From an uncultured bacterium (GTDB taxonomy: Bacteria; Patescibacteriota; Minisyncoccia; UBA6257; GWB1-50-10): 64,000 bases of DNA. Shown piece by piece: positions 955 through 27,767 of the stretch. The translations under genes and the position numbers were made by a program. The notes under the pieces are model-generated. The model was not told the DNA's origin, did not search any database, and saw only the letters and a list, made by a program, of their open reading frames with translations. The DNA is taken from the NCBI GenBank assembly GCA_963713955.1, contig OY970216.1, positions 637,483 through 701,482 of the forward strand, given 5' to 3'. Every line of letters starts with the position of its first letter. Within the stretch, counting starts at the first letter, position 1.

Positions 955-2475
955 CTATACGAAACCCGGGAAAAAATCGCTTCTCACGTTCTTCTTCTCG
1001 ATGTCCATGCTCTCCAAAACTTCCTTGGAACCCTCGACCATGGAATGGGTCCCCGAAACGTAGAACAACCGCTCTTGGTAATCGGGGATTGCTTTTTCGA
1101 TCATTCGCTCGTCAATGCGCCCCCGTTCGCCGTCCCATCCCGCCGGCGCTTCTCCCGTCAGAGTGTAAACCGCTTTCACGCCCACCCTCCTCGCTTCGTC
1201 AAAAATGTCCCGGTACATGATTTCGTCGGCCGTCCGGTTGGAATATAAAAGAACGATGTCCCTCCGTTCGTTTCGATCTAAAAGATATTTCGCCATGCTG
1301 CGAAACGGCGTGATGCCGATCCCGCCCGCGATGAAAACGAGTTTCTTCCTCCTGTCTTTCGGCAAGACAAAATCTCCCGAGAGCTGTGAAGCGGTTATTT
1401 TTTCTCCTTCCTTGAGATACGCAAGTGCTTTCTTGAAAGAGCTGGGATTTTGATAAAACCGTACGCCCATCCGTATTCTCCCTTCGGTCGGCGAAGAAGC
1501 AATCGTGAAATATCTCCGGTTCCCCCTCGAATCCGGCCGCTTGTGCGGGAGCGTCCACTCCAAGTATTGCCCCGGCTTGAACCTCAGTTTCTCGTCAGAC
1601 CGGAAAACGAAATCGTAGAGGCCCGGCCCAATTCGTATTCGCTCCTCAAGCCTCAAGATGAGTTTCTTCTTGGAGCTCGCGAGGTACGAGAAAACGTTGC
1701 CGAGAAGAAGCGCGAGCTCCGGCGTGAAATAAAACGATCCCACGTGGACCTGCGGCGCGAAGAAAAAGCCGACGAGCGCACCGTAGACCATCCGGAGATT
1801 TTCGGTGGGCGGCGTGGTTAAGGGTTCCGTGAGCATGACGAACGCGAAGAAGAAAAGGGGCGAATCGAGAAAAGCCTGACTCGCAAGCCGCACGACGTCC
1901 TGGCCCCCAAAAAATCCGAAGGAGAACGTCGCGATGAGCGAAACTGCAAAGAAACTTATGACCAGATCGGATCGCAAAAGCTTCCTTGTCATCAAGAGCC
2001 CGCCGACGAGAACAAAAGGAAGCAGGGAAGCGGTTCCGACCCACCAGCTCGCCGATTGATTGATGGTGAGAGCGGTCAGGGCAACGCCGAACGCGGCAGG
2101 GTTGAAGACATGTTTCTTCTTGATGGCTAAGATGTATTTCGAAGCCATGGCCCAAACGGACGCCCAAACGGCGAGGGGAAAATACGAAGACGCACTCGAC
2201 GGAAAAAAGGGCGTTATGATGAGCGTGAGAATGAGCGCGGTGATGTAAACGGACTCAACGTTTGTCTGAGCCTCGAAGACGCGCGAGAAAAGGAGGTTCG
2301 TGAGCCAGCATACCGCCGTTATGAAAAATCCAGAGAACAGGAGCCCGCCCCACGAATAGGGAAGTATGTGGACGGCCGAAAAAACGACGGCGACGGCGAA
2401 AAGGCCGAGAAGGTAATAGAGCACCAGCCGGTACATTGTTATCCTGTTCAAAAAATTATCGATAAGATCAATCAT
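955..2475 (-). CDS. Fusion: RnfD/NqrB-like polytopic membrane domain + ferredoxin-NADP reductase-like FAD/NAD(P)-binding domain
   Basis: N-terminal ~250 aa are multi-TM with HVFNPAAFG and MLTEPLTTPP, matching RnfD FNPAM and LTDPVTASTT in order. C-terminal RRYFTIASSP (RxY[ST] FAD motif) and FIAGGIGITP (NAD(P) glycine loop), as in FNR/NqrF-type reductases. Confidence 0.7.
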   Translation of the reverse strand: MIDLIDNFLNRITMYRLVLYYLLGLFAVAVVFSAVHILPYSWGGLLFSGFFITAVCWLTNLLFSRVFEAQTNVESVYITALILTLIITPFFPSSASSYFPLAVWASVWAMASKYILAIKKKHVFNPAAFGVALTALTINQSASWWVGTASLLPFVLVGGLLMTRKLLRSDLVISFFAVSLIATFSFGFFGGQDVVRLASQAFLDSPLFFFAFVMLTEPLTTPPTENLRMVYGALVGFFFAPQVHVGSFYFTPELALLLGNVFSYLASSKKKLILRLEERIRIGPGLYDFVFRSDEKLRFKPGQYLEWTLPHKRPDSRGNRRYFTIASSPTEGRIRMGVRFYQNPSSFKKALAYLKEGEKITASQLSGDFVLPKDRRKKLVFIAGGIGITPFRSMAKYLLDRNERRDIVLLYSNRTADEIMYRDIFDEARRVGVKAVYTLTGEAPAGWDGERGRIDERMIEKAIPDYQERLFYVSGTHSMVEGSKEVLESMDIEKKNVRSDFFPGFV

Positions 2476-2635
2476 GGTTTTGTTCGGCTCATCCAGCCGA
2501 CTTACCGTGCGTCAACACGCGTCGGTCCGCCCCAGCCGGCGGACCGCGCTCGACCTCGTCCTCGCTCTTCTCGCTTCGCTCGAAACCATGCCCGCTCGGA
2601 CTCCGCACGGTTGACTTGACGATAAGTCGGCTGGA
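2476..2635 (-). promoter_or_regulatory. Structured leader / intercistronic element: 21-nt arms of a long inverted repeat enclosing a GC-rich hairpin, ending 15 nt before the start codon of the fusion gene
   Basis: atccagccgacttaccgtgcg (2486-2506) pairs with cgcacgg..taagtcggctggat (2603-2635); internal ggtccgcc..ggcggacc hairpin. Confidence 0.35.
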
Positions 2636-3382
2636 TTAAGTACAAACATATTTTTCAAAACCCGAAGTCATGGTTGCGACGCCCTTTTCATCGATCAGGT
2701 AGCCCTCCAGGCCCTCCCGTCGCTCTATGAAGAGTATGCCCTCCCGCCCCATCGCGAACGCAGCCGTCGCAAACCTGTCGGCTTCGTAGATATCGGGACC
2801 GATGACGCTTAAGCTCACGATTTCCGAAACCGGCTTGTTCCCTCCCCGGGGATTATAGATGTGTTTGCCCCGCTCGTACGTCCCCGAAGTGGCCATTCCC
2901 CCTCTTTTCAAAACGACGGTCTTCACGATTTCCGCGGTATTGAAGGGATTTCGGATGCCGATCCTCCACGCCCGCCCCTCGGCATTCGTCCCGCTAACCT
3001 CGATGTCTCCGCCGGCGTCAACGTAAAAGTTCTCAAAACCCCTTCCCCTTAAAATATCTGCGGCGTTCCGGATTGCCCACCCTTTCACCAACCCCGACGG
3101 GTCATACCCGCCGCCGGGAGCGACGATGTCGAAATAACCACTGGTTTCCTTTTTCGTTTCTTCCGCCAACCTGAAAATTTCTCTCATGTCGGAGCTTAAA
3201 CCCGACTCACCGATCTCTCCATTATTGATCCTCGTTATCTCGCTTGAATCTTTGTACGTGCTGAAAGTGTCATCAACGTATTCAAAATAGGAGAAGACTT
3301 CTTCAAGGTTCTCGGATGTGACATCGGCGTCGACAACCTCGACGGTCACCGGCATACCCATGAGTATTCGCGTCTCCTTCAT
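2636..3382 (-). CDS. apbE: FAD:protein FMN transferase (ApbE family flavin transferase)
   Basis: 248 aa; MKETRILMGMPVTVEV start (ApbE MGTxV-type), plus GWAIR.., DAGGDI, TSGTYERG motifs typical of ApbE. Confidence 0.8.
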   Translation of the reverse strand: MKETRILMGMPVTVEVVDADVTSENLEEVFSYFEYVDDTFSTYKDSSEITRINNGEIGESGLSSDMREIFRLAEETKKETSGYFDIVAPGGGYDPSGLVKGWAIRNAADILRGRGFENFYVDAGGDIEVSGTNAEGRAWRIGIRNPFNTAEIVKTVVLKRGGMATSGTYERGKHIYNPRGGNKPVSEIVSLSVIGPDIYEADRFATAAFAMGREGILFIERREGLEGYLIDEKGVATMTSGFEKYVCT

Positions 3383-3386
3383 GTCG

Positions 3387-3857
3387 TTAACTCGCTTTCG
3401 AGAGAGCGGAAGCTAAAGATTCCTGGAACGCCTGGCTCGTTTGCGTCGCTCCCGAAACGATGTCCACGTTCGAGCTTTGCGCTTGGATTGCTTCCCGAGT
3501 CAAAATGGGCATTGCCTTATTGCTCACGGAGCGGGAGTAAGATCGGTCGTTCGGATACTGGAGGAACGTGACGTCCGCGATTTTCCCCGACTTGATCGAA
3601 ACTTGCACCTCAACGTTCCCGAAAAAAGCGTTCGCGACATCGCCGATATACGCCCCATCTTTGTAGGCACCCGTCATACCGCCCATCGGCATAGAAGGAT
3701 TATTGCTTGATTGCTGCTGTGGCGGTGCTGACGCAGCCGGCGCCGGTGACACCAATGGAGACGTACTGGTCGAGCCGCTCCGGCCGCCGAGATGCTGTGC
3801 AATGACGTAAAAAACGAAAACGGCGACCACGGCCGAGGATAAGACTACTTTCTTCAT
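3387..3857 (-). CDS. Membrane-anchored FMN-binding domain protein (NqrC/RnfG-type FMN_bind) with SGAT flavinylation motif
   Basis: N-terminal TM helix, low-complexity Pro/Ser/Gln linker, then ..NVDIVSGATQTSQAF.. ([S/T]GAT[S/T] flavin-attachment motif). Confidence 0.65.
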   Translation of the reverse strand: MKKVVLSSAVVAVFVFYVIAQHLGGRSGSTSTSPLVSPAPAASAPPQQQSSNNPSMPMGGMTGAYKDGAYIGDVANAFFGNVEVQVSIKSGKIADVTFLQYPNDRSYSRSVSNKAMPILTREAIQAQSSNVDIVSGATQTSQAFQESLASALSKAS

Positions 3858-3899: not shown

Positions 3900-3930
3900 T
3901 ACAAGAAAAGAGGCCTTTAAAGGGCCTCCT
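3900..3930 (-). terminator. Rho-independent terminator after the Cys-rich gene, followed by a TATAAT box for the FMN-binding gene
   Basis: Minus-strand RNA GAGGCCCUUUAAAGGCCUC + UUUUCUUGUAUAAUG. Confidence 0.5.
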
Positions 3931-3955
3931 TTCCTTAATCCCGGTTCTCAATCGG

Positions 3956-4309
3956 CTATTGGCCGGTCGTGGTCGATCCCTGGGCACCGCTGTAATTCCC
4001 GTTCCAGCCGTACATCATGGGAACAGGGTATCTCGAACCGCCGCCACCCCGCATCATATAACGCACGGGCATTTCACGATACCCCCCGCCCCAAAACGAG
4101 AACATGGCGCCGAGTTTGAATCCGGCGCAGAAAACGATGGCGAGGACGATGATGCCGATGAGCCACCTGAGCCAGCGCCTCCGGCAGCCCCCGTGCATGA
4201 AGCAATGACACGAACCGCAGGCGCAACCGCCGCACGCTTCGCACTTGCCTCCGCTGCACATCGGACACTTGCATCCCTCGGGATGATCATTTTTTTGCTG
4301 CATCTCCAT
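3956..4309 (-). CDS. Small Cys-rich membrane protein (CxxC-rich N-terminus, one TM helix, Gly/Met/Tyr-rich C-terminus)
   Basis: 117 aa: GCKCPMCSGGKCEACGGCACGSCHCFMHGGC, then WLRWLIGIIVLAIVFCAGF TM, then GGGYREMPVRYMMRGGGGSRYPVPMMYGWNGNYSG. First gene of a same-strand tight cluster. The overlapping + ORF 3959..4462 is rejected. Confidence 0.55.
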   Translation of the reverse strand: MEMQQKNDHPEGCKCPMCSGGKCEACGGCACGSCHCFMHGGCRRRWLRWLIGIIVLAIVFCAGFKLGAMFSFWGGGYREMPVRYMMRGGGGSRYPVPMMYGWNGNYSGAQGSTTTGQ

Positions 4310-4371: not shown

Positions 4372-6801
4372 TCAAGACTTTTTCTTCGTCCCCTTTGTCC
4401 CGCCAGAAACGGAATGTCCGCCGAATTGGTTTCGGAGCGCGGAAAGAATGCGTCCCATATAACTCGGCGATTTTTTAGATCGCATGCGGAACTTGAAAGC
4501 ATCCTCAATGGCCGGCAACTTCATGTCCCGTTTGCGCGCCGTCAGGATCGTCCACTCGCCTTCTCCGGTCGCGACAACCGACCCCGAAATTCCTTTCAAA
4601 TCTTCACCGTGCGCGCGGAAGGCGTTCTCGAGCCACCCGACGAGCCTCGATTCGATGACGCTCCCCCGGTTGTAAACCGCCGCGACTTCTTTAAGATTCA
4701 ATTTGAAAGGAGATTTTTTCATGAGCGCGAAACCCTCCGCGAGCGATTGCATCATGCCGTACTCGATTCCGTTGTGCACCATTTTGACGAAATGCCCCGC
4801 GCCCGCTTCCCCGAAACGGGCATAGCCGCCGGGCACCGAGAGATCCGCGAAGAGTTTTCCAAGAGACTCAAACGTCTTCGGTTCCCCGCCTATCATGAGG
4901 GAACCGCCATGGCGCGCGCCGGAAGGCCCGCCCGAAAAACCGACGTCCATAAATCGTATGCCTCTTTTAGCGAGGAGTTTCGACCGACGGACCGTATCCT
5001 CGAAAAACGAGTTGCCGGCGTCGATGACGACGTCTCCTCTATCTAAAAACTTCGTCAAACCGCCTTTCCCGAAAAGAGCGTCATCCACTCCCTTTCCCGC
5101 CGTAATCATGAGCCACACAACCCTCGGGCGCTTGAGTTTCGATATGAGTTCCTCGATCGAGAAGGCCGTCTCGAAACCCTCCTCGCCGATCTCGTCCACG
5201 GGGCCCTGCGAGCGATTCGCCGCGACGACGCGCCATCCCTTGTCGCGAAGCTGGCGTGCGACGTTCCGACCCATCTTTCCCAGGCCGAAAATTCCTATCT
5301 CTCCCGCCGGGAGGCCGTTGAGAGAAACGCCGTTATCCAAAGCTTCCGCCTCGGCGGAAATCGAAGAGTTGTCCGGCCGGTAGTGCTTCAGAGGGACTGT
5401 GTTCTTCCGCCAGCCGGCGATTATGGAATCGATGAAGCGCCACATGGCGGATATTTCGGCGCTTGAGACGAAAAGCATCTGATTATCCGATATGCAATCG
5501 AGGAGGAGCTTTTCGTACTCTTCCGTATATTGCGTCCTCCGGCCAGTTTTCCGGAGATCGAAATCAAACGTTCGCTCTTCGAGCTCCATCGTGAGTCCCG
5601 GCTTCTTCGACCAAAAATGAATGGTAATACCCTCGGCGGGATCCTGTTTGAAAACAACGGAATTCCGGTAATGCTTGCCGGGCGGACAAAGGCAGGGCCG
5701 CGGATGCCTGAAAGTCACTTCTATTTCCGTTATCTCGCCGCGGGAGCCGGGATTCATGAGCCGTTTACCGGCTTCCATAATGAACGTCACGCCGCGCCAC
5801 CGGGGATGCGCAAGGGAAAATCTTGCCCTGAAGTAGGTCTCGGTATCGGAATCGGGACGCACGCCCTTCACGGAGCGGTACCCTTCGTACTGAGCCCGGA
5901 ATGTCTGTCGCTTGACTTCTTTAAAAGACAGAGGAACGAGCGTTTGGAGGATCGACGCGCGATTTTTCCTCACGGCGTCGGCTTCCAGGCTTTCCGGCTG
6001 ATCCATCGTGACCAAAGCCACCATCTGGAGAAGGTGGTTCTGGCCGACGTCCCGGAGCGCCCCCACCGCGTCGTAAAAGGGACCGCGGTCTTCCACCCCG
6101 ATGTTCTCGAATTCGCGGACGCGCACGCTCTCGATGAGTTCGTTCCCCCAATTGTCCTCGAAAAGATTGTTGAAGAACCGGAATGCCATCACGTTCTGGA
6201 ACGTTTCTTTGGCCAAGTAATGGTCAATCCGGTAAATCTGATCTTCGCTGAAAAGCTTGGCGAGTTCCGCGTCGAGTGCTTTTGCGCTCTTCTCGTCGCT
6301 GCCGAACGGTTTTTCCACGATTACCCTTGTCCATCCTTCTTCGGGTCCGCCGCACGGTTCGCTCAAGCCCGATGCCGAAATATTTTTCAGTATCTCCGGA
6401 TAAAAGCGCGGCGGCACCGCGAGGTACAAGAGTTTGTTCGAACACATACCCCAGCGACCGTCGACGGCTTTGAGCGCCTCGGAAAGCCTCGCGTAGTCGG
6501 CTTCGTTCTCAAACGTCCCCCGTTCGTAGGAGTAAAGCGAGAGGAATTTTTCAATGCGTTTCTTTTCGCGATTCACGTTTACATGTTTTTTGAGTATCTC
6601 CCTCACCCGTTCCCGGAAATCGCTGTCCGTTAGATCACGTCTCGCGAAACCGACGACGCGAAACATGCGCGGCAAAGAATCCTTCGCGAAAAGGTTATAG
6701 AGGGCCGGCACTATCTTCTTCGTCATGAGATCGCCGGTCGCTCCAATGATGACGACAATGGTCGGTATTCGAGGTTTTACGTCCTTCTTTTTTGCAGACA
6801 T
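4372..6801 (-). CDS. zwf: Bifunctional fusion: glucose-6-phosphate 1-dehydrogenase (Zwf) + short-form 6-phosphogluconate dehydrogenase (Gnd/YqeC-type)
   Basis: 809 aa. N-terminal part has IIGATGDLMTKKIVPALYNLF and RIDHYLAKE (G6PD signatures). C-terminal ~300 aa has IGIFGLGKMGRNVA, DAGNSFFEDT, GEAGAGHFVKMVHNGIEYGMMQ (6PGDH signatures). Confidence 0.85.
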   Translation of the reverse strand: MSAKKKDVKPRIPTIVVIIGATGDLMTKKIVPALYNLFAKDSLPRMFRVVGFARRDLTDSDFRERVREILKKHVNVNREKKRIEKFLSLYSYERGTFENEADYARLSEALKAVDGRWGMCSNKLLYLAVPPRFYPEILKNISASGLSEPCGGPEEGWTRVIVEKPFGSDEKSAKALDAELAKLFSEDQIYRIDHYLAKETFQNVMAFRFFNNLFEDNWGNELIESVRVREFENIGVEDRGPFYDAVGALRDVGQNHLLQMVALVTMDQPESLEADAVRKNRASILQTLVPLSFKEVKRQTFRAQYEGYRSVKGVRPDSDTETYFRARFSLAHPRWRGVTFIMEAGKRLMNPGSRGEITEIEVTFRHPRPCLCPPGKHYRNSVVFKQDPAEGITIHFWSKKPGLTMELEERTFDFDLRKTGRRTQYTEEYEKLLLDCISDNQMLFVSSAEISAMWRFIDSIIAGWRKNTVPLKHYRPDNSSISAEAEALDNGVSLNGLPAGEIGIFGLGKMGRNVARQLRDKGWRVVAANRSQGPVDEIGEEGFETAFSIEELISKLKRPRVVWLMITAGKGVDDALFGKGGLTKFLDRGDVVIDAGNSFFEDTVRRSKLLAKRGIRFMDVGFSGGPSGARHGGSLMIGGEPKTFESLGKLFADLSVPGGYARFGEAGAGHFVKMVHNGIEYGMMQSLAEGFALMKKSPFKLNLKEVAAVYNRGSVIESRLVGWLENAFRAHGEDLKGISGSVVATGEGEWTILTARKRDMKLPAIEDAFKFRMRSKKSPSYMGRILSALRNQFGGHSVSGGTKGTKKKS

Positions 6802-6844: not shown

Positions 6845-7936
6845 TCATTCGGCGAAATGCTTGGAAAGCTTCGCCTTCGATTGGAAAGAATAATTGGAGG
6901 TCCCAAGCGAATCGTAAAGGATCTCGGGGATTTCAGCCATCCGCTCAAACTTGATCTTCGCGATTGCCTGCTTGTTCCTGATAATCATATCCTCGAAAGG
7001 CCTCACTTCGAGCGTCGCGGGACGCCCTTTCCCCTCGCCTGCCTTGCCGTATCCCCATCCTGGATCGAAAAACCCCGCGTAGTGGGACCTAAATTCACCG
7101 CTCCGTTCATCCATCGGAGCGACTTCGAGCGCCATGGAGGGGGGGACCCGCACGGCCTCCTTGGTGGACAAAATGTAAAATCCTCCTTTCTTCAGGGAAA
7201 CGCTTTCTCCTTTCTTCATCAGCCTGAAAAAATCATCGGGATCGTAGAATTTCCTTTTTGAAAAATCCATCACCTTGTTCGATCCCAAGCATTCGTACCC
7301 GATTGCATCTTGATCGAGGTCTAATCTCAGGATCACCGAGCCGTCGCCGTCCCTTATTTTGATGTCTTCATAGCGTATCGGCTCTCCGTGGCTGTCGAAA
7401 ACGAGTGCTTCCTTGTCGAGGACGTCTTTGAGTTCATTTTCTGTAAGCCTCGTATCGCGGTTGAAAAACCGGACTTGCGTCAGCCGCTCGCCCGGAGAAA
7501 CCTTGATCGGATATGAACGCGGGTTCACAGCGAGCCACAGCGATCCCGCATACCCCCGAGGAATCGTATCATAGCGCGAAACCCCGTCCGCGAGCACGCG
7601 GACGTGAACGTCATTCCGGCCCGTCGAACTCTTCGGGTTACAATAGCCGTAGAGATCCGGCGGCAGAGCAATAACTTCATTGAGGCGCGCAAGATACGTT
7701 ACATCCCGTTCGAGCGGATTCTCGAAGTTGTGCTTCGAGTGTTCCGTTTTCTCCACGAGTTCTGCGATTGTTTCACCCGGACGCGGCAGAAATATTCCCT
7801 CCACCCGGTATATTTCTTCCGAAAGAGAGAGATCAATTGACGCGGGGTTCAGATTTTCATCGGCGGTGTTCTTAATCGACCCTCCCCGGATCAGTTCTTT
7901 CACCTCTTGATACGGCAAAGCTCCAAAGCCATCCAT
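6845..7936 (-). CDS. dUTPase-fold protein, long-form dCTP deaminase-like (DCD family-like)
   Basis: Start taken at internal Met (MDGFGALPYQEVKELIRGGSI), since the upstream 122 codons are antisense to a plausible + gene. NLNPASIDLSL and CNPKSSTGRNDVHV resemble Dcd motifs (ATVDVRLG, GRSSLARLG). 364 aa. Confidence 0.45.
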   Translation of the reverse strand: MDGFGALPYQEVKELIRGGSIKNTADENLNPASIDLSLSEEIYRVEGIFLPRPGETIAELVEKTEHSKHNFENPLERDVTYLARLNEVIALPPDLYGYCNPKSSTGRNDVHVRVLADGVSRYDTIPRGYAGSLWLAVNPRSYPIKVSPGERLTQVRFFNRDTRLTENELKDVLDKEALVFDSHGEPIRYEDIKIRDGDGSVILRLDLDQDAIGYECLGSNKVMDFSKRKFYDPDDFFRLMKKGESVSLKKGGFYILSTKEAVRVPPSMALEVAPMDERSGEFRSHYAGFFDPGWGYGKAGEGKGRPATLEVRPFEDMIIRNKQAIAKIKFERMAEIPEILYDSLGTSNYSFQSKAKLSKHFAE

Positions 7937-7954
7937 AGTATCATTAATGATATA

Positions 7955-8311
7955 ATGAATCCATCCATGGAAGCAATTTACTACCCATGCCGCTACTGCG
8001 GAAACCAAGTTCCTCCCGATGCTTATTTTTGCCCCGCGTGCGGAAAGCAGCTGAGAGAGAAGGAACTTTCGACTTCCGTCGCAAAGCAGATACTGATCTA
8101 CGCCGTGAGCTTCTTTTTGCCTCCTCTCGGACTCATGTGGACTTTCAAGTACCTGAAGCAGGAGAGCCAAAAAGCCAAAAATATCGGGATCATTTCTCTT
8201 GTCCTCACCGTTGTTGCCATAGCCGTCGCCGTCTGGGTCACGGCCGACATCGTGAACGGCCTGAACTCGTACCTCAACAATCAGCTTAACGGAAGTTTGC
8301 AACTGTACTAG
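7955..8311 (+). CDS. Zinc-ribbon (CxxC..CxxC) membrane protein, hypothetical
   Basis: MNPSMEAIYYPCRYCGNQVPPDAYFCPACGK, then two predicted TM helices. AT-rich upstream taatgatataatg. Confidence 0.5.
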   Translation: MNPSMEAIYYPCRYCGNQVPPDAYFCPACGKQLREKELSTSVAKQILIYAVSFFLPPLGLMWTFKYLKQESQKAKNIGIISLVLTVVAIAVAVWVTADIVNGLNSYLNNQLNGSLQLY

Positions 8312-9547: not shown

Positions 9548-10267
9548 TTATACTCTTTTTCTCACGATGACGAAGGGGGTCATCTTGTTCCCCTGCCCCA
9601 GCGGATTGTCGAGGAGGACGAGTCGCGCGGTTTTCTTGTCGAGACCGACCCCTCTGCTCACGCCTAAAATCTTCACGTTAATGTAATTAGCGTCGGCCGT
9701 CACGGCAGGCATGCCGGTATTCTCTTCCACTTTATCGCAAACACCCTGCGGATCCGGCGGCGGCAAAACCGCCCACTCGGTGTAGGGATACATGTCTTCG
9801 GGTATGAATCCATCGATTTCGGAGACGCGATGGCCGGCGATAATCCAAAAAAGGCCGCGGATGCCGACGACCTTCCCGATGGCGCCCAAGATCATCGCCG
9901 GAATGATTCTCCACGCGCCAGCTTCTTCTATCGCAATCTGCACCTTTTCCGGCCTTGACCAGGCCGTCATGTTTTTATATTTCCTGACCCCCCTCGTCAC
10001 GATGCGCGCGAGGAATGTCACTTTGACCGTCGAAATGTGCCGCACGCGGTTCTCCGATATAGAAATTATCTTTTCCGATATCGCCACCCAGTCACCCTTC
10101 TTGAAATGCGGCTTCACGAACTCCCGGAGAACGTTTTCCAGATTTTCCCCGAACTTGATGAGGCACGGCACTTTGATGGGGTAGCGCTCATAAACGACTC
10201 CGCCGACCGTCTTCTCGATGGCCGGCTGCATTACCGATCCACTGGTTGTTCTTTCCGCCCTCGCCAT
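9548..10267 (-). CDS. CofE-like (F420-0:gamma-glutamyl ligase family) protein
   Basis: GDWVAISEKIISISENR and VLPPPDPQGVCDKVEENTG resemble CofE VVxSTVISKAEGR and LLPPLDPDGSAEKL..TG. Function here is uncertain. Confidence 0.4.
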   Translation of the reverse strand: MARAERTTSGSVMQPAIEKTVGGVVYERYPIKVPCLIKFGENLENVLREFVKPHFKKGDWVAISEKIISISENRVRHISTVKVTFLARIVTRGVRKYKNMTAWSRPEKVQIAIEEAGAWRIIPAMILGAIGKVVGIRGLFWIIAGHRVSEIDGFIPEDMYPYTEWAVLPPPDPQGVCDKVEENTGMPAVTADANYINVKILGVSRGVGLDKKTARLVLLDNPLGQGNKMTPFVIVRKRV

Positions 10268-10294
10268 GGAGTTTTTTGCAGACCAGGTCTTGTA

Positions 10295-10933
10295 TTATTC
10301 AAGTTCAATTCTGAAATTGCTCGGCTCGCCGCCGCAATATTTTTGGAATCCGGCCCACTCCACGTTCCCCGCCGCCGGCTGCTCCATCCGTCCTTGTTCA
10401 TCAATCATGCCGCCAAAGGAACTGCAGAACGACAGCGTATCGATCGGAACGTCATTCTTCTCGGCGCTTTCGAAGGCTTCGTTCACTTCCGACTTGAAAT
10501 CGTCATCCAAGTCGCGGACCACCGTCCCGTTCGTCGAGGAGGCCGAGAGCATTTCCTTCATCTCTTCGAGTCTCCGTTCGGCGAATTTCTGGTGGAGATA
10601 GGGCCTCTTCGCCGCCGGCGCGAGAACCAGCGTGACGTTTTCACCGAGGCGCTTGAATGAATAGAGAGGGTGCGTCGGACTCACGTTGCTCCCCTCCGCA
10701 AACGCCACGAGCGCGCCGTTCAGCGCCACGATGACGGCAAAGACGAGGGAATACTTGAAAAATTTGTTGAAACCTTTCCTCGCAAGTACGACCGCCCCCC
10801 GCGAAGCGGCGAGCGCGCCGAGAAAATCGGCCCGCGCTCTGTCAAGAAAACGCTTGTCGGGTTTCATCGCTCTCCTCACGAGCACAATCGCTCTCAGGAA
10901 GCACCATTTTGATTTGAACGGCCTAATTTTCAT
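10295..10933 (-). CDS. Putative membrane-spanning anti-sigma factor (start may be internal Met at 10867)
   Basis: Overlaps the stop of the upstream ECF sigma gene by 11 nt; single TM helix YSLVFAVIVALNGALVAFA; no other recognisable domain. Confidence 0.45.
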   Translation of the reverse strand: MKIRPFKSKWCFLRAIVLVRRAMKPDKRFLDRARADFLGALAASRGAVVLARKGFNKFFKYSLVFAVIVALNGALVAFAEGSNVSPTHPLYSFKRLGENVTLVLAPAAKRPYLHQKFAERRLEEMKEMLSASSTNGTVVRDLDDDFKSEVNEAFESAEKNDVPIDTLSFCSSFGGMIDEQGRMEQPAAGNVEWAGFQKYCGGEPSNFRIELE

Positions 10934-11471
10934 ATTGGTAGATTTCCTTTATTTTCTTTGCAATCCGGTGAGCCGAGACTCGGAGCGACACTTCCGTCTT
11001 CCCCGTGATCCCGGAAATCTCGCGGTACGACAAACCCTGAACGTACCGCAACGAAAAAAGCTCCTGCTCTTCTTCGGAAAATCCCCGGACGGTTCTCATG
11101 ATTTCCGCCAGGAATTCTTTCGTGTCGAGCGAATCGCTCGACACGAACTCGGCACCCTCCTCTTCGGTGAATTCCGAAAGCAAAACGTTCTTTCGTTCCC
11201 GGAAAAAATCATTGAGCGTATTCCTCGCGATCTGCCAGAACCAGGGAGTGAAATTGCCGAGCGACGGATCAAACGTATCGATCCGTGCCACCAGTTTCAC
11301 GAAAACGTCTTGGAGCAGATCTTCCGCCGTGCTCTTTGATCCGGTCCGCTGCATGAAAAACCTCAAAAACGAGGGGGCGAATTTGTTGAAAACCCTTTCC
11401 CCCGCTCTCACGTCTCCTCTTTTCAAATCCAAAGCCCACGAGTTGGTGTCGTCTCCCGAAGTTTTTCTCAT
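10923..11471 (-). CDS. ECF-type RNA polymerase sigma factor (sigma-70 regions 2 and 4)
   Basis: DLLQDVFVKLVARIDTFDP..FTPWFWQIARNTLNDFFRER (region 2) and LSYREISGITGKTEVSLRVSAHRIAKKI (region 4 HTH). Confidence 0.8.
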   Translation of the reverse strand: MRKTSGDDTNSWALDLKRGDVRAGERVFNKFAPSFLRFFMQRTGSKSTAEDLLQDVFVKLVARIDTFDPSLGNFTPWFWQIARNTLNDFFRERKNVLLSEFTEEEGAEFVSSDSLDTKEFLAEIMRTVRGFSEEEQELFSLRYVQGLSYREISGITGKTEVSLRVSAHRIAKKIKEIYQYEN

Positions 11472-11508
11472 AAAATATACGGACTATTTTGTCAATTGTT
11501 ACAGCCGG

Positions 11509-12414
11509 TCAGATGCTCAAATAGCGCCTCGTGGCTACGATACTGGAAACAATTCCGAGTCCCACCCCGAAGAGTACTTGATAAAGGAAGAGTGTCAGGA
11601 AGCCCGAGGAAAAATAAGAACCGAGATTCACTTCCGGTATGAAACTGTTCACATGGGGCGAGATGAACGTGATGACCGGTATCATAATGAGGAAGCTCAC
11701 GAGCGCCGAGATCAAGCCGTAGAGCGAACCCTCTACAACGTACGGACCCCTGATGAATTTGTTCGAAGCGCCGACGAGTCTCATGATCCCGATCTGCTCG
11801 CGGTTGGAAAAGATGGCGAGGCGTATGGTGTTGAACGTGACCGAGGCGGCGAGGAAGGCGAGGAAAATCGTCAGCACGAAACCGCCGGTCGTGAAATTGT
11901 CGACGATTGACACCAGCCGATTGATGACAACCTGGTTTTGGGCGTAGTTTACCTTATAGGTGATGTTCTGGAAATCGGGTTTTTCGAGGTACGCCGCGAT
12001 GGTGTCGTAATGGTGGATGTCTTTGGCCTTGATGTTGAGGGATGGCAGGAGTGGATTGGTGTCCAGCGTACTGAGCGTCTTCGTGATGGACTCGTCCCCC
12101 GCGTGGAGCGCTTTGAACGTAGCGAGCGCCTGTTCCTGTGAAACGTAGTCAACGTACTGGACCTCGTCCAGGCCTTCCAGCGATTTTTTGAGATTCAGGA
12201 TCGTATCTTCCGGAATATTGCTCTGGAAATAAACGGTGATGTCCACCTTGTTCTCGATGGTTTGCATGGCGCCTTTCGACACGACGTTGAAAAGGATGAG
12301 CCCTTCGAAAACGATGAGTGCCAAAATCATGATGGCGATCGTCGAAAACGAGAGCCACCCGTCCCGCAAAAAGTTCTGAATGCCGTATTTGAATATCCTG
12401 AAGAGGTTGATCAT
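11509..12414 (-). CDS. ftsX: Cell-division ABC transporter permease FtsX
   Basis: 301 aa, FtsX topology (N-terminal TM, periplasmic domain, three C-terminal TMs); immediately downstream of ftsE. Confidence 0.8.
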   Translation of the reverse strand: MINLFRIFKYGIQNFLRDGWLSFSTIAIMILALIVFEGLILFNVVSKGAMQTIENKVDITVYFQSNIPEDTILNLKKSLEGLDEVQYVDYVSQEQALATFKALHAGDESITKTLSTLDTNPLLPSLNIKAKDIHHYDTIAAYLEKPDFQNITYKVNYAQNQVVINRLVSIVDNFTTGGFVLTIFLAFLAASVTFNTIRLAIFSNREQIGIMRLVGASNKFIRGPYVVEGSLYGLISALVSFLIMIPVITFISPHVNSFIPEVNLGSYFSSGFLTLFLYQVLFGVGLGIVSSIVATRRYLSI

Positions 12415-21426: not shown

Positions 21427-22026
21427 TTAATTGAAATCAATCTTCTTGATTATTTTGTCCACCTGCCACCGCTTATTAACCCGGCAAAGATACATTTCCT
21501 TCGCGATGAACGAAAACCCAACGCCCTTCGTTCTTTCCCGAACCTCTAGGGCATCTCTGGGATTTTTCAAATACCCCATGCTGAAATGCGGGCTGAAACC
21601 GGTGGGACGGCCGTATTTCCCGAACTCCCGCAAGTCCTTTGCCGTCCAAGTTTTAAACGTGAGAAGCGGCATCGTCCCGGTTCTCAGCGGATGGATCCTT
21701 TCGAATACTTTCCTCTGCAAGGAAACCAGTGATCTCGTCCTTGCCACGGAAAATCCGACCGTCATTCCCCTCTTGACTTGAGAAGCGTGGAAATCGGCGA
21801 CGTTCACCGTGAAAGGTCTCAAATCCTCAGCTATCTTTTCGAGTTCTTCGGCTATTTTATTGATTCTCCCTCCGGCGGTATTGAGATGCCACAGGGAAAG
21901 ATGCGGAATCAGTTTAACGTTGTCGACCACGAACTCGGCCGGACACCCGGCGGTTTCTTTCCTCATCCTCCGGCCGATTTTCTCCCGCAACCCCGCCGGT
22001 GGCAATATGACCACATCCAGAAGCAT
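21427..22026 (-). CDS. 2H phosphoesterase superfamily protein (LigT-like RNA 2',3'-cyclic phosphodiesterase)
   Basis: Two H-x-[ST]-x motifs: PHLSLWHL and PHFSMGYL. Confidence 0.7.
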   Translation of the reverse strand: MLLDVVILPPAGLREKIGRRMRKETAGCPAEFVVDNVKLIPHLSLWHLNTAGGRINKIAEELEKIAEDLRPFTVNVADFHASQVKRGMTVGFSVARTRSLVSLQRKVFERIHPLRTGTMPLLTFKTWTAKDLREFGKYGRPTGFSPHFSMGYLKNPRDALEVRERTKGVGFSFIAKEMYLCRVNKRWQVDKIIKKIDFN

Positions 22027-22113
22027 ATTTTATCTTATCACAATCTCCCCGATTCCTTTCTCTTATTCGCTTATTCGCACGAATTAGAGATATGAGTGCG
22101 CGGGGGATTATTG

Positions 22114-22374
22114 TTATAAAAGCTCGATGATACGGCGGGCGGGCAATTTTTGAATCGATACCAACCGGTAGAACATCTGCAAGCTTCTTTGGTCCTTTTC
22201 GACCATATCCGCCGCCGACAGAATCCCGAGATGTTTGGATGTCGCCTTGAATGACAATTTGATCTCATGCGCGATTTCGCCGACGGGTGCTTCCTTGTTC
22301 TGCTTCAAATATTGCAGAATAGCCAACCGCCGCCGATTGGCCAACGCCTTCAATGTCCTCTCTAATTCCTTCAT
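22114..22374 (-). CDS. ArsR/SmtB family transcriptional regulator
   Basis: 86 aa; ANRRRLAILQYL..PVGEIAHEIKLSFKATSKHLGILSAADMV winged-helix signature. Confidence 0.8.
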   Translation of the reverse strand: MKELERTLKALANRRRLAILQYLKQNKEAPVGEIAHEIKLSFKATSKHLGILSAADMVEKDQRSLQMFYRLVSIQKLPARRIIELL

Positions 22375-22411
22375 CCCCTCTTACCCTTTTATTATATCAT
22401 CTTCCTCATCT

Positions 22412-22433
22412 AATTCTCTCATTCGCGCGAATT
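22412..22433. promoter_or_regulatory. Candidate ArsR operator (palindrome core ATTCGCGCGAAT); related half-palindrome at 22066-22087
   Basis: tctcattcgcgcgaattagaga between arsR and the divergent zinc-ribbon gene; ttattcgcacgaattagaga upstream of the LigT-like gene. Confidence 0.3.
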
Positions 22434-22545
22434 AGAGAACTTAAGAATGGACAAGGAGACCGCTAGCGTGGAAAAATGGACAAAAACCACGGCTCGTGGT
22501 AATACAAAACTAAATAAACAGCAATATTAAAAAGGAGAATAAGGT

Positions 22546-22797
22546 ATGAACTACTCAGCCAGAGGTCCGGAGCATATCCTCTATTGCGACGACTGCAACG
22601 AACCCCTCCGAATGATGGACCGCAGGGGGATCTACTGCCCCAAGTGCAAAGTAAGCGATTCCGGACGGAGTCCGAAATTCATTATGTCCTGCGTGGATTG
22701 CAATAAACCTCTGCAAGTCACAGAGGGCGGAGGGCTGTATTGCGAGCACTGCCTTTTCTATCCCAGCCTGCAGGATGTAGCACTCGAAGAGTGTTGA
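22546..22797 (+). CDS. Small protein with two tandem zinc-ribbon (CxxC..CxxC) modules
   Basis: YCDDCNEPL..GIYCPKCK and MSCVDCNKPL..GLYCEHC; AAAGGAG 8 nt upstream of the ATG; divergent from arsR. Confidence 0.55.
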   Translation: MNYSARGPEHILYCDDCNEPLRMMDRRGIYCPKCKVSDSGRSPKFIMSCVDCNKPLQVTEGGGLYCEHCLFYPSLQDVALEEC

Positions 22798-22820
22798 ACA
22801 TCCAGCCAGTATTCGCAACG

Positions 22821-22851
22821 AATACCCAACATCTGTTGGGTATTTTATTTT
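22821..22851 (+). terminator. Rho-independent terminator (possibly bidirectional) between the zinc-ribbon gene and pilin-like gene 1
   Basis: AAUACCCAACAUCUGUUGGGUAUU + UUAUUUU. Confidence 0.6.
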
Positions 22852-22978
22852 AGCTATTTCCTATCCCCTAAGCCCTAACTTCCACCTTCCCGCCGCCGCC
22901 CGCATAGGTTTTAGTTCTTGCTTTCAACAAAAATTTTTCGATTTCGGTTTTGGGCATTTTCTTATCCGCCTAAGTGCA

Positions 22979-24244
22979 CTACTTTTGAGCATTGTACATA
23001 GCCTGGATCTCAGCCGCAGACAATGCTCGATTATAGATGCGGACGTCGTCAAAAAGGCCATCCATCATCCATCCCGAAACACTTGAAATGCTGATGTTAT
23101 CCGAAGACAAAACATTCCCCGTCACCGAAGATATATTCACAGACCCTGATTGCTTTACTCCGTTCACGTAGACATATGCGAATCCCGCGGAACGATCGAA
23201 GACGATGGCGATATGAGCCCAGGTATTCTGAAGATCTGATGGCCGATACCCAGCGTCACATGCAACAAGTCCTGTCACTAAATTGGTACCATCATTGAAG
23301 TGGATGTTTATTCCTGTTGCACTATAGCTAGAATTGTCGATTGAATATCCAGGATGACCAGATTGATAAGAGTTACTGTTACCAATTGGGAAAAAGGCTC
23401 TTGGATAAACATAACTTCGGTGATAACCCCATCCCACGATCGTCAAACTTCCGGTTTGGGGATATAGGCTTGCATTGTTTCCAACGATCACATTATCATC
23501 CGTCCCATTGAAGTTCCCAGCGTATTGTCCCACCTTGCCTTGAGTATAGTAGGAACCATTGGTTATGGAACCAGACCACGTCCCCTGATTCCCATTCCCA
23601 CTCATATCATTAGGGTTTCCATCGAGGGGCCAGTAACCAACCAATCCATTCGTATTGAATAAGGGATTCAGGGAAAGGTTTGATCCATAAGCTATGACTC
23701 CAGGAATCATAGGAACCATAGGACTTCCTTCAATCTGAGACTTGTATTTCTGTGACTCAGGGAGACCGGTAAGTTCAAAGGAACCTCCCATGGTGTAGGT
23801 ATAGTAGAGGCCCGAACTCGTGGTGTTTATGGGATCAATAGGGAGCTTTGACAAAGGAGAACCTGATGAAATGAGGGTTAGATTGACGGGAATCCAGCCT
23901 GTTCCGTCTACCTTGGTTGAGGAAGAGCTTGGAACACAGTGATAACTCCAGCCTGTGGGAGGGGTAGGGAGACCCAAGGAGCCGCAGGTCGAAGAAGCGT
24001 TGTCGGGAACTGAGAGATAGAGGGTATTTGGAGTCCCTAAAGATTGACTCCACTCATCTGCCTGGAAGAGAGATAAAGCACTGTTTAAAGCTGCCAAGTC
24101 AGACAAACGAGTGGAATCTCTTCCCTGGGCCAGAAGCTGGGCAGGATTCAGGACGAGGACGACTGCGGTTGCGAGGACAGCAAGGATTGCTATCACAACC
24201 AGGAGCTCAATCAATGTAAAAGATTCTCTACTTCGCAGATTCAT
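22979..24244 (-). CDS. Prepilin-type N-terminal cleavage/methylation domain protein with C-terminal LamG (concanavalin A-like) domain, paralog 1
   Basis: Start at MNLRSRES|FTLIELLVVIAILAVLA (type IV pilin class III signal, Glu+5); C-terminal GLFDDVRIYNRALSAAEIQAMYNAQK (Laminin_G_3-type motif). The 51 upstream codons of the track ORF read through repeat C and are rejected. Confidence 0.8.
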   Translation of the reverse strand: MNLRSRESFTLIELLVVIAILAVLATAVVLVLNPAQLLAQGRDSTRLSDLAALNSALSLFQADEWSQSLGTPNTLYLSVPDNASSTCGSLGLPTPPTGWSYHCVPSSSSTKVDGTGWIPVNLTLISSGSPLSKLPIDPINTTSSGLYYTYTMGGSFELTGLPESQKYKSQIEGSPMVPMIPGVIAYGSNLSLNPLFNTNGLVGYWPLDGNPNDMSGNGNQGTWSGSITNGSYYTQGKVGQYAGNFNGTDDNVIVGNNASLYPQTGSLTIVGWGYHRSYVYPRAFFPIGNSNSYQSGHPGYSIDNSSYSATGINIHFNDGTNLVTGLVACDAGYRPSDLQNTWAHIAIVFDRSAGFAYVYVNGVKQSGSVNISSVTGNVLSSDNISISSVSGWMMDGLFDDVRIYNRALSAAEIQAMYNAQK

Positions 24245-24297
24245 TAGTTCAATTATAGCAGGAAAACGTCCTGCCTTTTTGTTCTGGGAGGAGAGTG

Positions 24298-24394: not shown

Positions 24395-24463
24395 CAAATT
24401 TCTATTCCCTATCCCTCTAACCCGTCCGAGCCTTGAGGAGAAATCGAGTTAATGCATCTCTGT

Positions 24464-25613: not shown

Positions 25614-25656
25614 ATTCAGTTTTTACCCCCTAACTTCCTCGACCTTTCAAAAACTA

Positions 25657-27765: not shown

Positions 27766-27767
27766 AG

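What the first reader, a model, noticed from the sequence alone, without database searches (positions are those of the whole stretch)
4372..6801. Single-polypeptide fusion of G6P dehydrogenase and short-form 6-phosphogluconate dehydrogenase
An 809-aa ORF joins a complete Zwf (GATGDL, RIDHYLAKE) to a ~300-aa Gnd (GLGKMGRNVA..GAGHFVKMVHNGIEYG). No lactonase domain is present. Fusing steps 1 and 3 of the oxidative pentose phosphate branch is uncommon. It suggests channeling of NADPH production, perhaps to the adjacent reductase module.
Basis: partly seen in the sequence, partly recalled or inferred. Interest (0 to 1): 0.55.

Follow-up and report, generated by a model that had tools for sequence, protein, structure and literature searches.

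The report
Fused Zwf–Gnd pentose-phosphate enzyme gene

Summary
Confirmed. Window 4372-6801 holds one 809-aa ORF, on the minus strand. The real junction is at 5302-5337, not 5850-5950. Residues 1-488 are a complete glucose-6-phosphate dehydrogenase (TIGR00871, above cutoff). Residues 501-809 are a complete short-chain 6-phosphogluconate dehydrogenase (TIGR00872 and NF007161, above cutoff). A 12-residue variable linker joins them, and all catalytic motifs are intact. It is not an assembly artefact: an independent assembly has identical DNA. All 120 best homolog clusters and 40 distinct fetched loci share the architecture. These are mainly Patescibacteria, plus high-GC Coriobacteriia MAGs. Unfused relatives carry zwf and gnd overlapping or 1-12 nt apart, once separated by a single in-frame TAG, so one small mutation makes the fusion. 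Both halves carry NADP+-type coenzyme motifs. The "channelling to the adjacent reductase module" idea is not supported. That neighbourhood occurs only in this genome, and a stable terminator-like hairpin lies in between. No lactonase is encoded in the protein or in the ~70 kb visible. Fused genes have largely lost the adjacent lactonase gene that unfused operons keep (1/26 versus 14/23). A PF04199 "cyclase-like" hydrolase repeatedly occupies the lactonase slot in related operons. Verdict: new member of a known kind, of modest interest.

The parts
4372..6801 (-). Fused zwf-gnd gene, 809 codons plus stop (TGA at 4372-4374)
   Evidence: ORF list and translation. Domain hits. DNA identical in two other assemblies.
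5338..6801 (-). Glucose-6-phosphate dehydrogenase half, residues 1-488. It carries GATGDL 20-25, R54, EKPFG 163-167, RIDHYLAKE 191-199 and catalytic-His motif QNHLLQ with H256.
   Evidence: TIGR00871 438.5 bits, above cutoff 400.6. Aligns end to end with solved G6PDs 9EMM, 7E6H and 1DPG. Residues invariant in 85 fused homologs. AF2 model fits 1DPG with TMt 0.90.
5302..5337 (-). Linker, residues 489-500 (DNGVSLNGLPAG). It is variable in sequence and in length (10-20 aa) across the family.
   Evidence: Lowest conservation in the 131-sequence alignment. Lies between the Zwf and Gnd HMM ends. AF2 pLDDT is below 50 for residues 491-498.
4375..5301 (-). Short-chain 6-phosphogluconate dehydrogenase half, residues 501-809. 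It carries GLGKMG 505-510, N529-R530-S531, SGGPxGA 623-629, K673/H676/N677/E680 and the C-terminal RxxFGxH motif 790-796.
   Evidence: TIGR00872 313.1 bits above cutoff 297.2, and NF007161 331.8 above 271. Aligns end to end with short-chain 6PGDHs 6XEQ, 6VPB and 8IHE. Motif meaning comes from PMC8900737 and bioRxiv 10.64898/2026.01.21.700892. Residues invariant.
3956..4309 (-). Small ORF (117 aa) 62 nt downstream of the fusion. It has a Cys-rich N-terminus and one hydrophobic helix, and matches no family. It is probably the last gene of the same transcription unit.
   Evidence: Sequence read directly. No Pfam or NCBIfam hit.
3903..3935 (-). Terminator-like hairpin (13-bp stem, A-tract before it and U-tract after it). 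It lies between the small ORF and the FMN_bind/ApbE/RnfD-FNR genes.
   Evidence: Pattern scan. Sequence. RNA fold -22.1 kcal/mol, z = -2.9.

Best explanation
This is a bifunctional oxidative pentose-phosphate enzyme made as one polypeptide. The N-terminal Zwf half oxidises glucose-6-phosphate to 6-phosphoglucono-delta-lactone. The lactone leaves the enzyme and is hydrolysed, either spontaneously or by a lactonase encoded elsewhere. The C-terminal short-chain Gnd half then oxidatively decarboxylates 6-phosphogluconate to ribulose-5-phosphate. Both halves most likely use NADP+, giving 2 NADPH per glucose-6-phosphate. The gene arose in the Patescibacteria lineage from a tightly packed zwf-gnd(-pgl) operon. 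A stop-codon loss or a small frameshift at the overlapping zwf stop and gnd start would suffice. The likely benefit is fixed 1:1 expression and co-assembly of two obligately oligomeric dehydrogenases in a minimal genome, not metabolite tunnelling. Placing Gnd at the C-terminus keeps free the C-terminal tail that short-chain 6PGDHs donate to a neighbouring subunit's active site. Shown here: the ORF, its domain content, intact motifs, conservation, distribution, and the junction anatomy in relatives. Inferred: enzyme activities, coenzyme preference, oligomeric state, and the selective reason for the fusion.
For: The ORF and domains are established. Every catalytic or binding motif of both enzymes is invariant or nearly so in 85 fused homologs. 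The mean column identity is 55% and only the linker is unconserved. The architecture is shared by the 120 best clusters at 55-69% identity and by 40 distinct fetched loci. DNA is identical in independent assemblies. On origin, unfused CPR relatives show an ATGA overlap (L021), a 1-nt spacer (L022), or a single in-frame TAG plus 9 nt (L004) between zwf and gnd. Fused and unfused forms interleave within one CPR clade in NJ trees of both halves. There is no Met or start codon at the Gnd N-terminus in the query (…PAG-EIGIFGLGKMG), so Gnd can only be made as part of the fusion. On coenzyme use, the Gnd beta2-alpha2 triplet is N529-R530-S531. That is the Asn-Arg-Thr type that binds the 2'-phosphate, whereas NAD+-preferring short forms have Asp-Arg-Asp (PMC8900737). 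Of 36 fused proteins, 29 have NR[S/T/H]. Zwf R54 is at least 90% conserved. The RxxFGxH tail motif is present. AF2 gives two confident domains joined by a disordered 8-residue stretch. Glucose-6-phosphate isomerase (bact-PGI_C) lies within 3 kb of the fusion in 5 of 26 scorable fused loci and directly follows it in L083, L085, L090 and L096. That fits a G6P-consuming role.
Against: There is no biochemical evidence, and coenzyme preference rests on motifs alone. Step 2 is unaccounted for. No PF01182 or PF04199 gene lies in the 64-kb window or in any of 26 fused loci with flanks, except L008. In E. coli, intracellular spontaneous hydrolysis was reported not to compensate for loss of Pgl (bioRxiv 10.1101/2023.11.29.569206). 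The benefit of the fusion could be nil, that is, a neutral relic. The NJ trees have no bootstrap support, so the number of fusion and fission events is uncertain. The relative orientation of the two halves is not predicted with confidence (pTM 0.63).
Confidence: 0.8

Rival explanations
1. Artefact: two adjacent genes (zwf, gnd) were merged by a sequencing or assembly error at the junction.
For: Close relatives have zwf and gnd as separate, overlapping or abutting genes, so a 1-nt error could merge them.
Against: DNA is identical in an independent Logan assembly and in an ENA assembly. The junction has no homopolymer. All 120 best homolog clusters and 40 distinct loci from many samples and assemblers have the same uninterrupted ORF. 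The ancestral gnd ATG is absent.
Confidence: 0.01
2. The ORF is translated as one chain but is then cleaved in the linker, so the cell contains ordinary separate Zwf and Gnd. The fusion would only be an expression device. This was suspected for some diatom metabolic fusions.
For: The linker is short, variable and predicted disordered. Kroth et al. mention post-translational cleavage of some diatom fusion proteins (PMC2173943).
Against: No conserved cleavage motif exists in the linker. No dedicated protease is linked to the gene. Bacterial metabolic fusions are normally stable.
Confidence: 0.07
3. The fusion is coupled to the neighbouring membrane flavoprotein module (FMN_bind, ApbE, RnfD-like/FNR fusion). 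It would supply NADPH directly to an extracytoplasmic electron-transfer chain.
For: The genes share a strand and lie within 2 kb. The 506-aa protein has an FNR-type NAD(P)H-binding domain and an RnfD/NqrB-like membrane part. ApbE and an FMN_bind protein weakly similar to PplA lie beside it.
Against: The module is next to the fusion only in this genome. None of 39 other fused loci has it. A small ORF and a stable terminator-like hairpin, followed by a TATAAT-like box, separate the two units. NADPH diffuses freely, so no physical channel is needed or implied.
Confidence: 0.07
4. The fusion makes a dedicated lactonase dispensable. For example, 6-phosphogluconolactone could be hydrolysed at or near the tethered Gnd domain, so fused lineages lost pgl.
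For: Lactonase candidates (PF01182 pgl or PF04199 cyclase-like) lie within 3 kb of 14 of 23 unfused zwf>gnd pairs and 37 of 51 gnd>zwf pairs. They lie within 3 kb of only 1 of 26 fused genes (Fisher p = 2e-5). None is in the 64-kb window.
Against: Loss of adjacency is not loss from the genome, and only about 70 kb of an 805-kb genome was visible. No extra domain, insertion or conserved linker exists that could provide hydrolase chemistry. No 6PGDH is known to hydrolyse the lactone (my own knowledge).
Confidence: 0.1

Closest known systems
G6PDH/6PGDH fusion of the diatom Phaeodactylum tricornutum (protein 54663 / XP_002183714.1; Kroth 2008 PMC2173943; Stover 2011 PMC3148214)
   Same: Same two enzymes in the same order (G6PD first), joined by a short spacer (39 nt there, 36 nt here). 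No lactonase domain.
   Different: The diatom case is eukaryotic and restricted to one species and its close relatives. Its legitimacy was questioned and cleavage was suspected. In 2011 a BLAST of nr found no other such fusion. The present one is bacterial and found in at least 40 distinct loci. It derives from a bacterial zwf-gnd operon and uses the ~300-aa short-chain Gnd. I did not test whether the diatom Gnd half is short or long, or whether the two fusions are related.
G6PD::6PGL bifunctional enzymes (Plasmodium GluPho, Giardia/Trichomonas G6PD::6PGL, metazoan H6PD)
   Same: G6PD is fused to another enzyme of the oxidative branch. The fusions have repeated independent origins. The same questions arise about channelling versus a neutral relic.
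   Different: There the partner is the lactonase (PF01182), so consecutive steps 1 and 2 are joined. Here steps 1 and 3 are joined and the lactonase is missing. A bacterial-type G6PD-6PGL example, P0270, turned up in the same search.
Stand-alone short-chain (tetrameric) 6PGDH, e.g. Gluconobacter oxydans 6VPB, 6XEQ, M. tuberculosis Gnd2 8IHE
   Same: End-to-end alignment (E 1e-52 to 1e-54). Same GxGxxG fingerprint, catalytic Lys/Glu motif and C-terminal RxxFGxH tail.
   Different: The solved enzymes have Asp at the first position of the beta2-alpha2 triplet (D-R-D, D-H-D, D-R-T), which is the NAD+-type pattern. The query has N-R-S, the NADP+ type. The query also lacks their ~15-25-residue insertion before the GAGHFVKM motif, and its N-terminus is tethered to Zwf.
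Unfused zwf-gnd-pgl and zwf-gnd-'cyclase' operons of other Patescibacteria (e.g. L018, L021, L026, L089)
   Same: Same clade of Zwf and Gnd sequences and the same gene order. The genes overlap or lie 1-12 nt apart.
   Different: They have two polypeptides, and a lactonase candidate directly follows gnd.

Membership tests
Glucose-6-phosphate dehydrogenase (Zwf, TIGR00871, EC 1.1.1.49) | Full-length match to the equivalog model above its curated cutoff | tested here: met
   438.5 bits against cutoff 400.6; residues 14-475 cover model positions 3-463 of 486.
Glucose-6-phosphate dehydrogenase (Zwf, TIGR00871, EC 1.1.1.49) | Dinucleotide fingerprint GxxGDL, EKPFG motif, substrate motif RIDHYLGKE, and the catalytic His in QNHLLQ | tested here: met
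   GATGDL 20-25, EKPFG 163-167, RIDHYLAKE 191-199 and H256 are all present. E163-G167, D193, H194, Y195, K198 and H256 are invariant in 85 homologs. They align with 9EMM and 7E6H. The roles of the motifs are from my own knowledge of G6PD structures.
Glucose-6-phosphate dehydrogenase (Zwf, TIGR00871, EC 1.1.1.49) | G6P-dependent NAD(P)+ reduction | not testable with these tools
   Needs an enzyme assay.
Short-chain 6-phosphogluconate dehydrogenase (gnd_rel TIGR00872 / NF007161) | Full-length match above curated cutoffs, with a single helical hemi-domain (~300 aa) | tested here: met
   313.1 bits against 297.2 and 331.8 against 271; residues 501-798 cover the models end to end. Long-form models fall far below their cutoffs (207 against 427). 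PF00393 is matched only over positions 1-115 of 290.
Short-chain 6-phosphogluconate dehydrogenase (gnd_rel TIGR00872 / NF007161) | Catalytic Lys/Glu motif (GHFVKMVHNGIEYG) and C-terminal RX2FGXH substrate-binding tail | tested here: met
   K673, H676, N677, E680, R790, F793, G794 and H796 are invariant. The motif definition is from bioRxiv 10.64898/2026.01.21.700892. It is present in 35 of 36 fused proteins.
Short-chain 6-phosphogluconate dehydrogenase (gnd_rel TIGR00872 / NF007161) | NAD+ preference, as in the TIGR00872 name (Asp-Arg-Asp type beta2-alpha2 loop) | tested here: not met
   The query has N529-R530-S531, the NADP+-type Asn-Arg-X triplet. It is therefore filed as a short-chain 6PGDH with predicted NADP+ preference. 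The NCBIfam NF007161 name 'NADP-dependent' fits better.
Short-chain 6-phosphogluconate dehydrogenase (gnd_rel TIGR00872 / NF007161) | Homotetramer with C-terminal helix exchange | not testable with these tools
   Only a monomer model was made.
G6PD::6PGL fusion enzymes (GluPho / H6PD type) | A 6-phosphogluconolactonase (PF01182) domain in the same chain | tested here: not met
   No PF01182 hit. The linker is only 12 aa.
G6PD-6PGDH fusion (diatom type) | One ORF with G6PD N-terminal and 6PGDH C-terminal, joined by a short spacer | tested here: met
   The description of the diatom case is from PMC3148214.
G6PD-6PGDH fusion (diatom type) | Common descent with the diatom gene | not tested
The query's halves group with unfused CPR zwf and gnd, which argues for an independent bacterial origin.

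The most novel reading that the evidence does not exclude
In fused-gene lineages the oxidative branch runs without a classical lactonase. Either the tethered Zwf-Gnd assembly itself copes with 6-phosphogluconolactone, or step 2 is done by an unrecognised enzyme. The best candidate is the ~207-aa PF04199 'cyclase/arylformamidase-like' metal hydrolase. It sits in the pgl slot of zwf-gnd operons in all 13 loci where it was found and in every context checked, so it may be a new, non-orthologous 6-phosphogluconolactonase.
Probability: 0.3. Interest if true: 0.65.

Novelty: new member of a known kind. Interest (0 to 1): 0.35.

Why it matters
The fusion shows that many ultra-small-genome bacteria encode both NADPH-yielding steps of the pentose phosphate pathway in one gene. 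Public annotation labels that gene only 'glucose-6-phosphate dehydrogenase'. Automated metabolic reconstructions of these organisms may therefore miss Gnd and call the oxidative branch incomplete. The family is a natural, compact two-step NADPH-regenerating enzyme of possible biotechnological use. It also offers a clean evolutionary series (overlapping genes, then an in-frame stop, then a fusion) for studying how operon genes fuse. Finally, it sharpens the question of who hydrolyses the lactone in these bacteria.

Tried and rejected
1. Plus-strand reading of 4372-6801 is full of stops, and the gene is on the minus strand.
2. Assembly artefact was rejected.
3. The second half is not another beta-hydroxyacid dehydrogenase such as HIBADH or tartronate semialdehyde reductase. 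Those models score 58-74 bits against cutoffs of 290-400.
4. Conserved linkage to the FMN_bind/ApbE/RnfD-FNR module was not found in any other fused locus.
5. I looked for a conserved partner directly next to fused genes. Neighbours are heterogeneous: tRNA synthetase, CstA, HAD, SIMPL, TMEM175, transketolase and PGI.
6. I tried to find this genome's lactonase by matching 'longest contig' fingerprints among the top 120 PF04199 homologs. There was no match, but at least 8000 candidates exist, so the result is uninformative. I ran no further search on the same lottery for pgl.
7. The afdb50 fold library was unavailable. The PDB fold and sequence searches found only single-enzyme structures.
8. 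Six literature searches found no paper describing a natural bacterial Zwf-Gnd fusion. The 'zwf-gnd' hits are engineered co-expression constructs.
9. The HPxPCLC…H stretch in the Zwf half is a substitution within an aligned strand region, not an inserted domain.
Full report
**1. Observation**

Window 4372-6801 contains a single ATG-to-TGA ORF of 809 codons on the minus strand. The plus-strand translation is riddled with stops. The finding's coordinates are right, but its suggested junction (~5850-5950) was counted from the wrong end.

Pfam places G6PD_N at residues 17-203, G6PD_C at 205-479, NAD_binding_2 at 501-654 and the first third of the 6PGD helical domain at 669-777. There is no lactonase domain.

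NCBIfam equivalog models are passed for both halves:

| Model | Score (bits) | Cutoff (bits) |
|---|---|---|
| zwf TIGR00871 | 438.5 | 400.6 |
| gnd_rel TIGR00872 | 313.1 | 297.2 |
| NF007161 | 331.8 | 271 |

Long-form Gnd models and other beta-hydroxyacid dehydrogenase models fall far below their cutoffs. By HMM boundaries the Zwf half ends at L488 and the Gnd half starts at E501. The linker is therefore DNGVSLNGLPAG, which is window 5302-5337.

**2. Not an artefact**

- The exact protein is encoded on three contigs from different pipelines: NCBI 804,691 bp, ENA 59,408 bp and Logan 5,874 bp.
- The ENA and Logan DNA that I could fetch is identical to the window over 16.8 kb and 5.9 kb respectively.
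- The junction has no homopolymer. The two alternative frames of the gene carry 32 and 18 stops.
- The 120 best homolog clusters (90% identity clustering) are all 773-844 aa, carry all four domains, and are 55-69% identical.
- Among the 150 best representatives of 50%-identity clusters, about 16 are fused or partial fusions and the rest are plain Zwf or Gnd.
- Of 169 loci fetched from GTDB species genomes, metagenomes and exact look-ups, 40 distinct loci carry an uninterrupted zwf+gnd reading frame.

**3. Who has it**

- Source names are Candidatus Paceibacterota, Minisyncoccia, Patescibacteria, Wolfebacteria, Magasanikbacteria, Doudnabacteria, and Woesebacteria/Microgenomates. One of these is a 928,688-bp genome.
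- All are annotated just 'glucose-6-phosphate dehydrogenase'.
- The window itself looks like such a genome. It has DUF5667 next to an ECF sigma factor and many type-IV-pilin-like proteins with Laminin_G_3 domains. Its GC content is 51%.
- Three MAGs labelled Actinomycetes, Coriobacteriia and Slackia carry fused genes in 64-68% GC DNA. Their sequences nest inside the CPR clade. This suggests lateral transfer, although the NJ trees carry no support values.

**4. Origin**

The short-form gnd and zwf are neighbours in many phyla.

- The order is gnd>zwf(>pgl) in Chloroflexota, Acidobacteriota, Chlorobiota and others.
- The order is zwf>gnd in Patescibacteria, some Bacillota and some Actinomycetota.
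- In unfused Patescibacteria the two genes overlap (ATGA in L021) or are separated by 1 nt (L022). In L004 they are in the same frame, separated by one TAG and 9 nt.
- A point mutation or a 1-2-nt indel therefore creates the fusion. The 10-20-residue linkers of fused proteins correspond to the old Zwf tail plus the Gnd leader.
- In the query the ancestral Gnd start codon is gone, so Gnd can only be made as part of the fusion.
- Fused and unfused forms interleave within a single CPR clade for both halves. This suggests more than one fusion or fission event, with the caveat that these are NJ trees without bootstrap.

**5. Function of each half**

All motifs I know to define G6PD are present and invariant or nearly so across 85 fused homologs:

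- GATGDL.
- R54 in GFARR, which I take to be the counterpart of the 2'-phosphate-binding Arg.
- EKPFG.
- RIDHYLAKE.
- H256 in QNHLLQ.

The Gnd half aligns end to end with the solved short-chain, tetrameric 6PGDHs 6XEQ, 6VPB and 8IHE.

- It keeps the catalytic K673/E680 block.
- It keeps the C-terminal RxxFGxH motif (R790…H796). In Gluconobacter 6PGDH that motif reaches into the neighbouring subunit's substrate site.
- Placing Gnd last leaves this tail free.

The coenzyme-discriminating beta2-alpha2 triplet is N529-R530-S531.

- According to the 6PGDH structural review, Asn-Arg-Thr binds the 2'-phosphate and defines NADP+ specificity, whereas Asp-Arg-Asp goes with NAD+ preference (PMC8900737).
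- The solved short-chain enzymes have Asp at the first position.
- Of 36 fused proteins, 29 have NR[S/T/H] and the rest begin with Asp.

I therefore predict that both halves of this protein use NADP+. This is an inference from motifs, not a measurement.

**6. Structure**

- AlphaFold2 with the 85-sequence alignment gives mean pLDDT 86.4.
- It shows two confident domains and a disordered stretch at residues 491-498. The overall pTM is 0.63, so the mutual orientation is undetermined.
- The Zwf half superposes on 1DPG with TM 0.90 normalised to the target.
- No PDB chain covers more than one half, by fold or by sequence.

**7. The missing second step**

The protein has no lactonase domain. HMMs for DevB-type pgl (PF01182) and for a PF04199 family find nothing in the six-frame translation of the whole window. 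Pfam data for 47 of the 72 window ORFs of 90 aa or more show no YbhE-type or SMP30-type lactonase. These data come from scans of 41 ORFs plus precomputed hits for six more. One Amidohydro_2 protein lies at 24464-25354.

Across loci there is a clear pattern. The table counts loci that have at least 1 kb of flank on both sides and a lactonase candidate within 3 kb.

| Arrangement | With candidate / loci scored | Comment |
|---|---|---|
| gnd>zwf pairs | 37/51 | pgl |
| Unfused zwf>gnd pairs | 14/23 | Loci found through the cyclase query are excluded |
| Fused genes | 1/26 | Fisher p = 2e-5 against unfused zwf>gnd |

Fusion therefore goes with dissolution of the operon. The fused gene sits in very variable contexts. 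Its most frequent neighbour is glucose-6-phosphate isomerase of the bact-PGI_C type, within 3 kb in 5 of the 26 scored loci.

Whether fused-gene genomes have a lactonase elsewhere could not be tested, because only about 70 kb of this 805-kb genome is visible. This matters because a recent flux study reports that intracellular spontaneous hydrolysis does not compensate for loss of Pgl in E. coli (bioRxiv 10.1101/2023.11.29.569206).

**8. A by-product: a candidate lactonase**

A ~207-aa PF04199 'cyclase/arylformamidase-like' protein occupies the pgl slot in related operons.

- It carries the HxGTHxDxPxH metal motif. Its closest solved relatives are 'metal-dependent hydrolase' 8HMO and 1R61 and the kynurenine formamidases.
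- It lies in the same gene cluster as zwf/gnd in loci L019, L024, L029, L041, L008, L023, L103, L117 and L120, directly after gnd in most of them.
- All four further contexts I looked up at random from the homolog list are also beside zwf/gnd (L086-L089). They include a complete Roizmanbacteria genome.
- It is a strong candidate for a non-orthologous 6-phosphogluconolactonase.
- It is not present in this window.

**9. The reductase idea**

Downstream on the same strand lie four genes:

- a 117-aa Cys-rich membrane ORF;
- an FMN_bind protein with faint PplA similarity;
- ApbE;
- a 506-aa RnfD/NqrB-like membrane protein fused to an FNR-type NAD(P)H domain.

This is plausibly an NAD(P)H-oxidising, flavinylated, extracytoplasmic electron-transfer module. 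However, it neighbours the fusion only in this genome. A 13-bp hairpin with flanking A and U tracts (-22.1 kcal/mol, z = -2.9), followed by a TATAAT-like box, lies between the small ORF and the module. I see no evidence for a dedicated link.

**10. Comparison with what is known, and novelty**

- Fusions of G6PD with the lactonase are well known (Plasmodium, Giardia/Trichomonas, metazoan H6PD).
- A G6PD-6PGD fusion has been reported only for Phaeodactylum. There its reality was debated, and a 2011 nr search found no other example (PMC3148214 and PMC2173943).
- Six full-text searches found no description of a natural bacterial Zwf-Gnd fusion.
- The sequences are nevertheless abundant in public databases.
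- I therefore rate it a new, bacterial, independently derived member of a known kind (bifunctional oxidative-PPP fusion enzymes). It is real and tidy, but of modest surprise.
- The more interesting open points are the fate of the lactone and the PF04199 candidate.

Noticed in passing
L019 1360-1974; L024 12406-13026; L029 12554-13180; L041 1878-2504; L008 14169-14795; L086-L089 ~5001-5627; L103, L117, L120: A ~207-aa PF04199 'cyclase/arylformamidase-like' metal hydrolase (HxGTHxDxPxH motif) lies beside zwf/gnd, in most loci directly after gnd, in the slot that pgl has in other operons. This held in every context examined, including 4 of 4 random look-ups. It is a candidate non-orthologous 6-phosphogluconolactonase. 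It is absent from this window.
   Followed up: partly
L084 10418-11086: A 222-aa alpha/beta-hydrolase gene overlaps the stop codon of a fused zwf-gnd gene by 4 nt. It shows weak similarity to enol-lactonases and esterases, and is another possible lactone hydrolase.
   Followed up: no
window 955-3857 (-): Three genes suggest a flavinylated, NAD(P)H-oxidising extracytoplasmic electron-transfer module in a CPR-type genome. They are an FMN_bind protein (3387-3857), the ApbE flavin transferase (2636-3382), and a 506-aa fusion of an RnfD/NqrB-like membrane domain with an FNR-type FAD/NAD(P)H domain (955-2475).
   Followed up: partly
window 3956-4309 (-): A 117-aa ORF right after the fusion has about 13 Cys in its first 45 residues (CKCPMCSGGKCEACGGCACGSCHC), then one hydrophobic helix and a Gly/Met/Tyr-rich tail. 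It matches no family. It is followed by the hairpin terminator.
   Followed up: no
window 24464-25354 (-): An Amidohydro_2 (PF04909) protein of 296 aa. That family includes sugar and aromatic lactonases (my own knowledge), so it is a remote candidate for the missing lactonase. It has no NCBIfam match.
   Followed up: no
window 5674-5709 (-), residues 365-376: The stretch HPRPCLCPPGKH in the Zwf beta-sheet domain follows the family consensus HPxPCLCxxxxH. It replaces a hydrophobic strand of canonical G6PDs. It could be a metal or redox site, or nothing.
   Followed up: no
L004 4948-4962: In this Parcubacteria MAG, zwf and gnd are in the same frame and are separated only by one TAG and 9 nt. That is one point mutation, or stop read-through, away from the fused form.
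   Followed up: partly
L012, L014, L015 (match at ~10001-12340): Fused zwf-gnd genes occur in 64-68% GC contigs of Actinomycetes, Coriobacteriia and Slackia MAGs. Their sequences nest within the CPR clade, which suggests lateral transfer of the fused gene out of Patescibacteria.
   Followed up: partly
window 22000-30000: A low-GC stretch (43-46% against ~52% elsewhere) carries an MvaI/BcnI-type restriction endonuclease (26968-27765) and its N4/N6 DNA methylase (27768-28577). It is probably an acquired island.
   Followed up: no
window 22979-24397, 30537-31157, 31252-32478, 46228-47436, 52962-54149: Five paralogous proteins have a Laminin_G_3 (concanavalin-like) domain. Four of them also have an N-terminal type-IV-pilin methylation motif. 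This looks like a family of pilin-like surface adhesins.
   Followed up: no
window 6845-8302 (-): The dCTP deaminase-like gene 43 nt upstream of the fusion is listed as 485 aa from a TTG start. The family model matches only residues 124-484, and another assembly calls it 363 aa. The N-terminal 120 residues are probably not translated.
   Followed up: no
window 59545-63248 (-): The RNA polymerase beta' region appears as two ORFs overlapping by 25 nt (61101-63248 and 59545-61125). The second carries Rpb1 domains 4-5. This is either a split rpoC or a frameshift, and the first ORF was not scanned.
   Followed up: no
P0270, P0227: The same library search also returned a G6PD-6PGL fusion (768 aa) and a protein with a partial N-terminal 6PGL-like stretch before G6PD (652 aa). 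These are other fusion types of the oxidative branch.
   Followed up: partly
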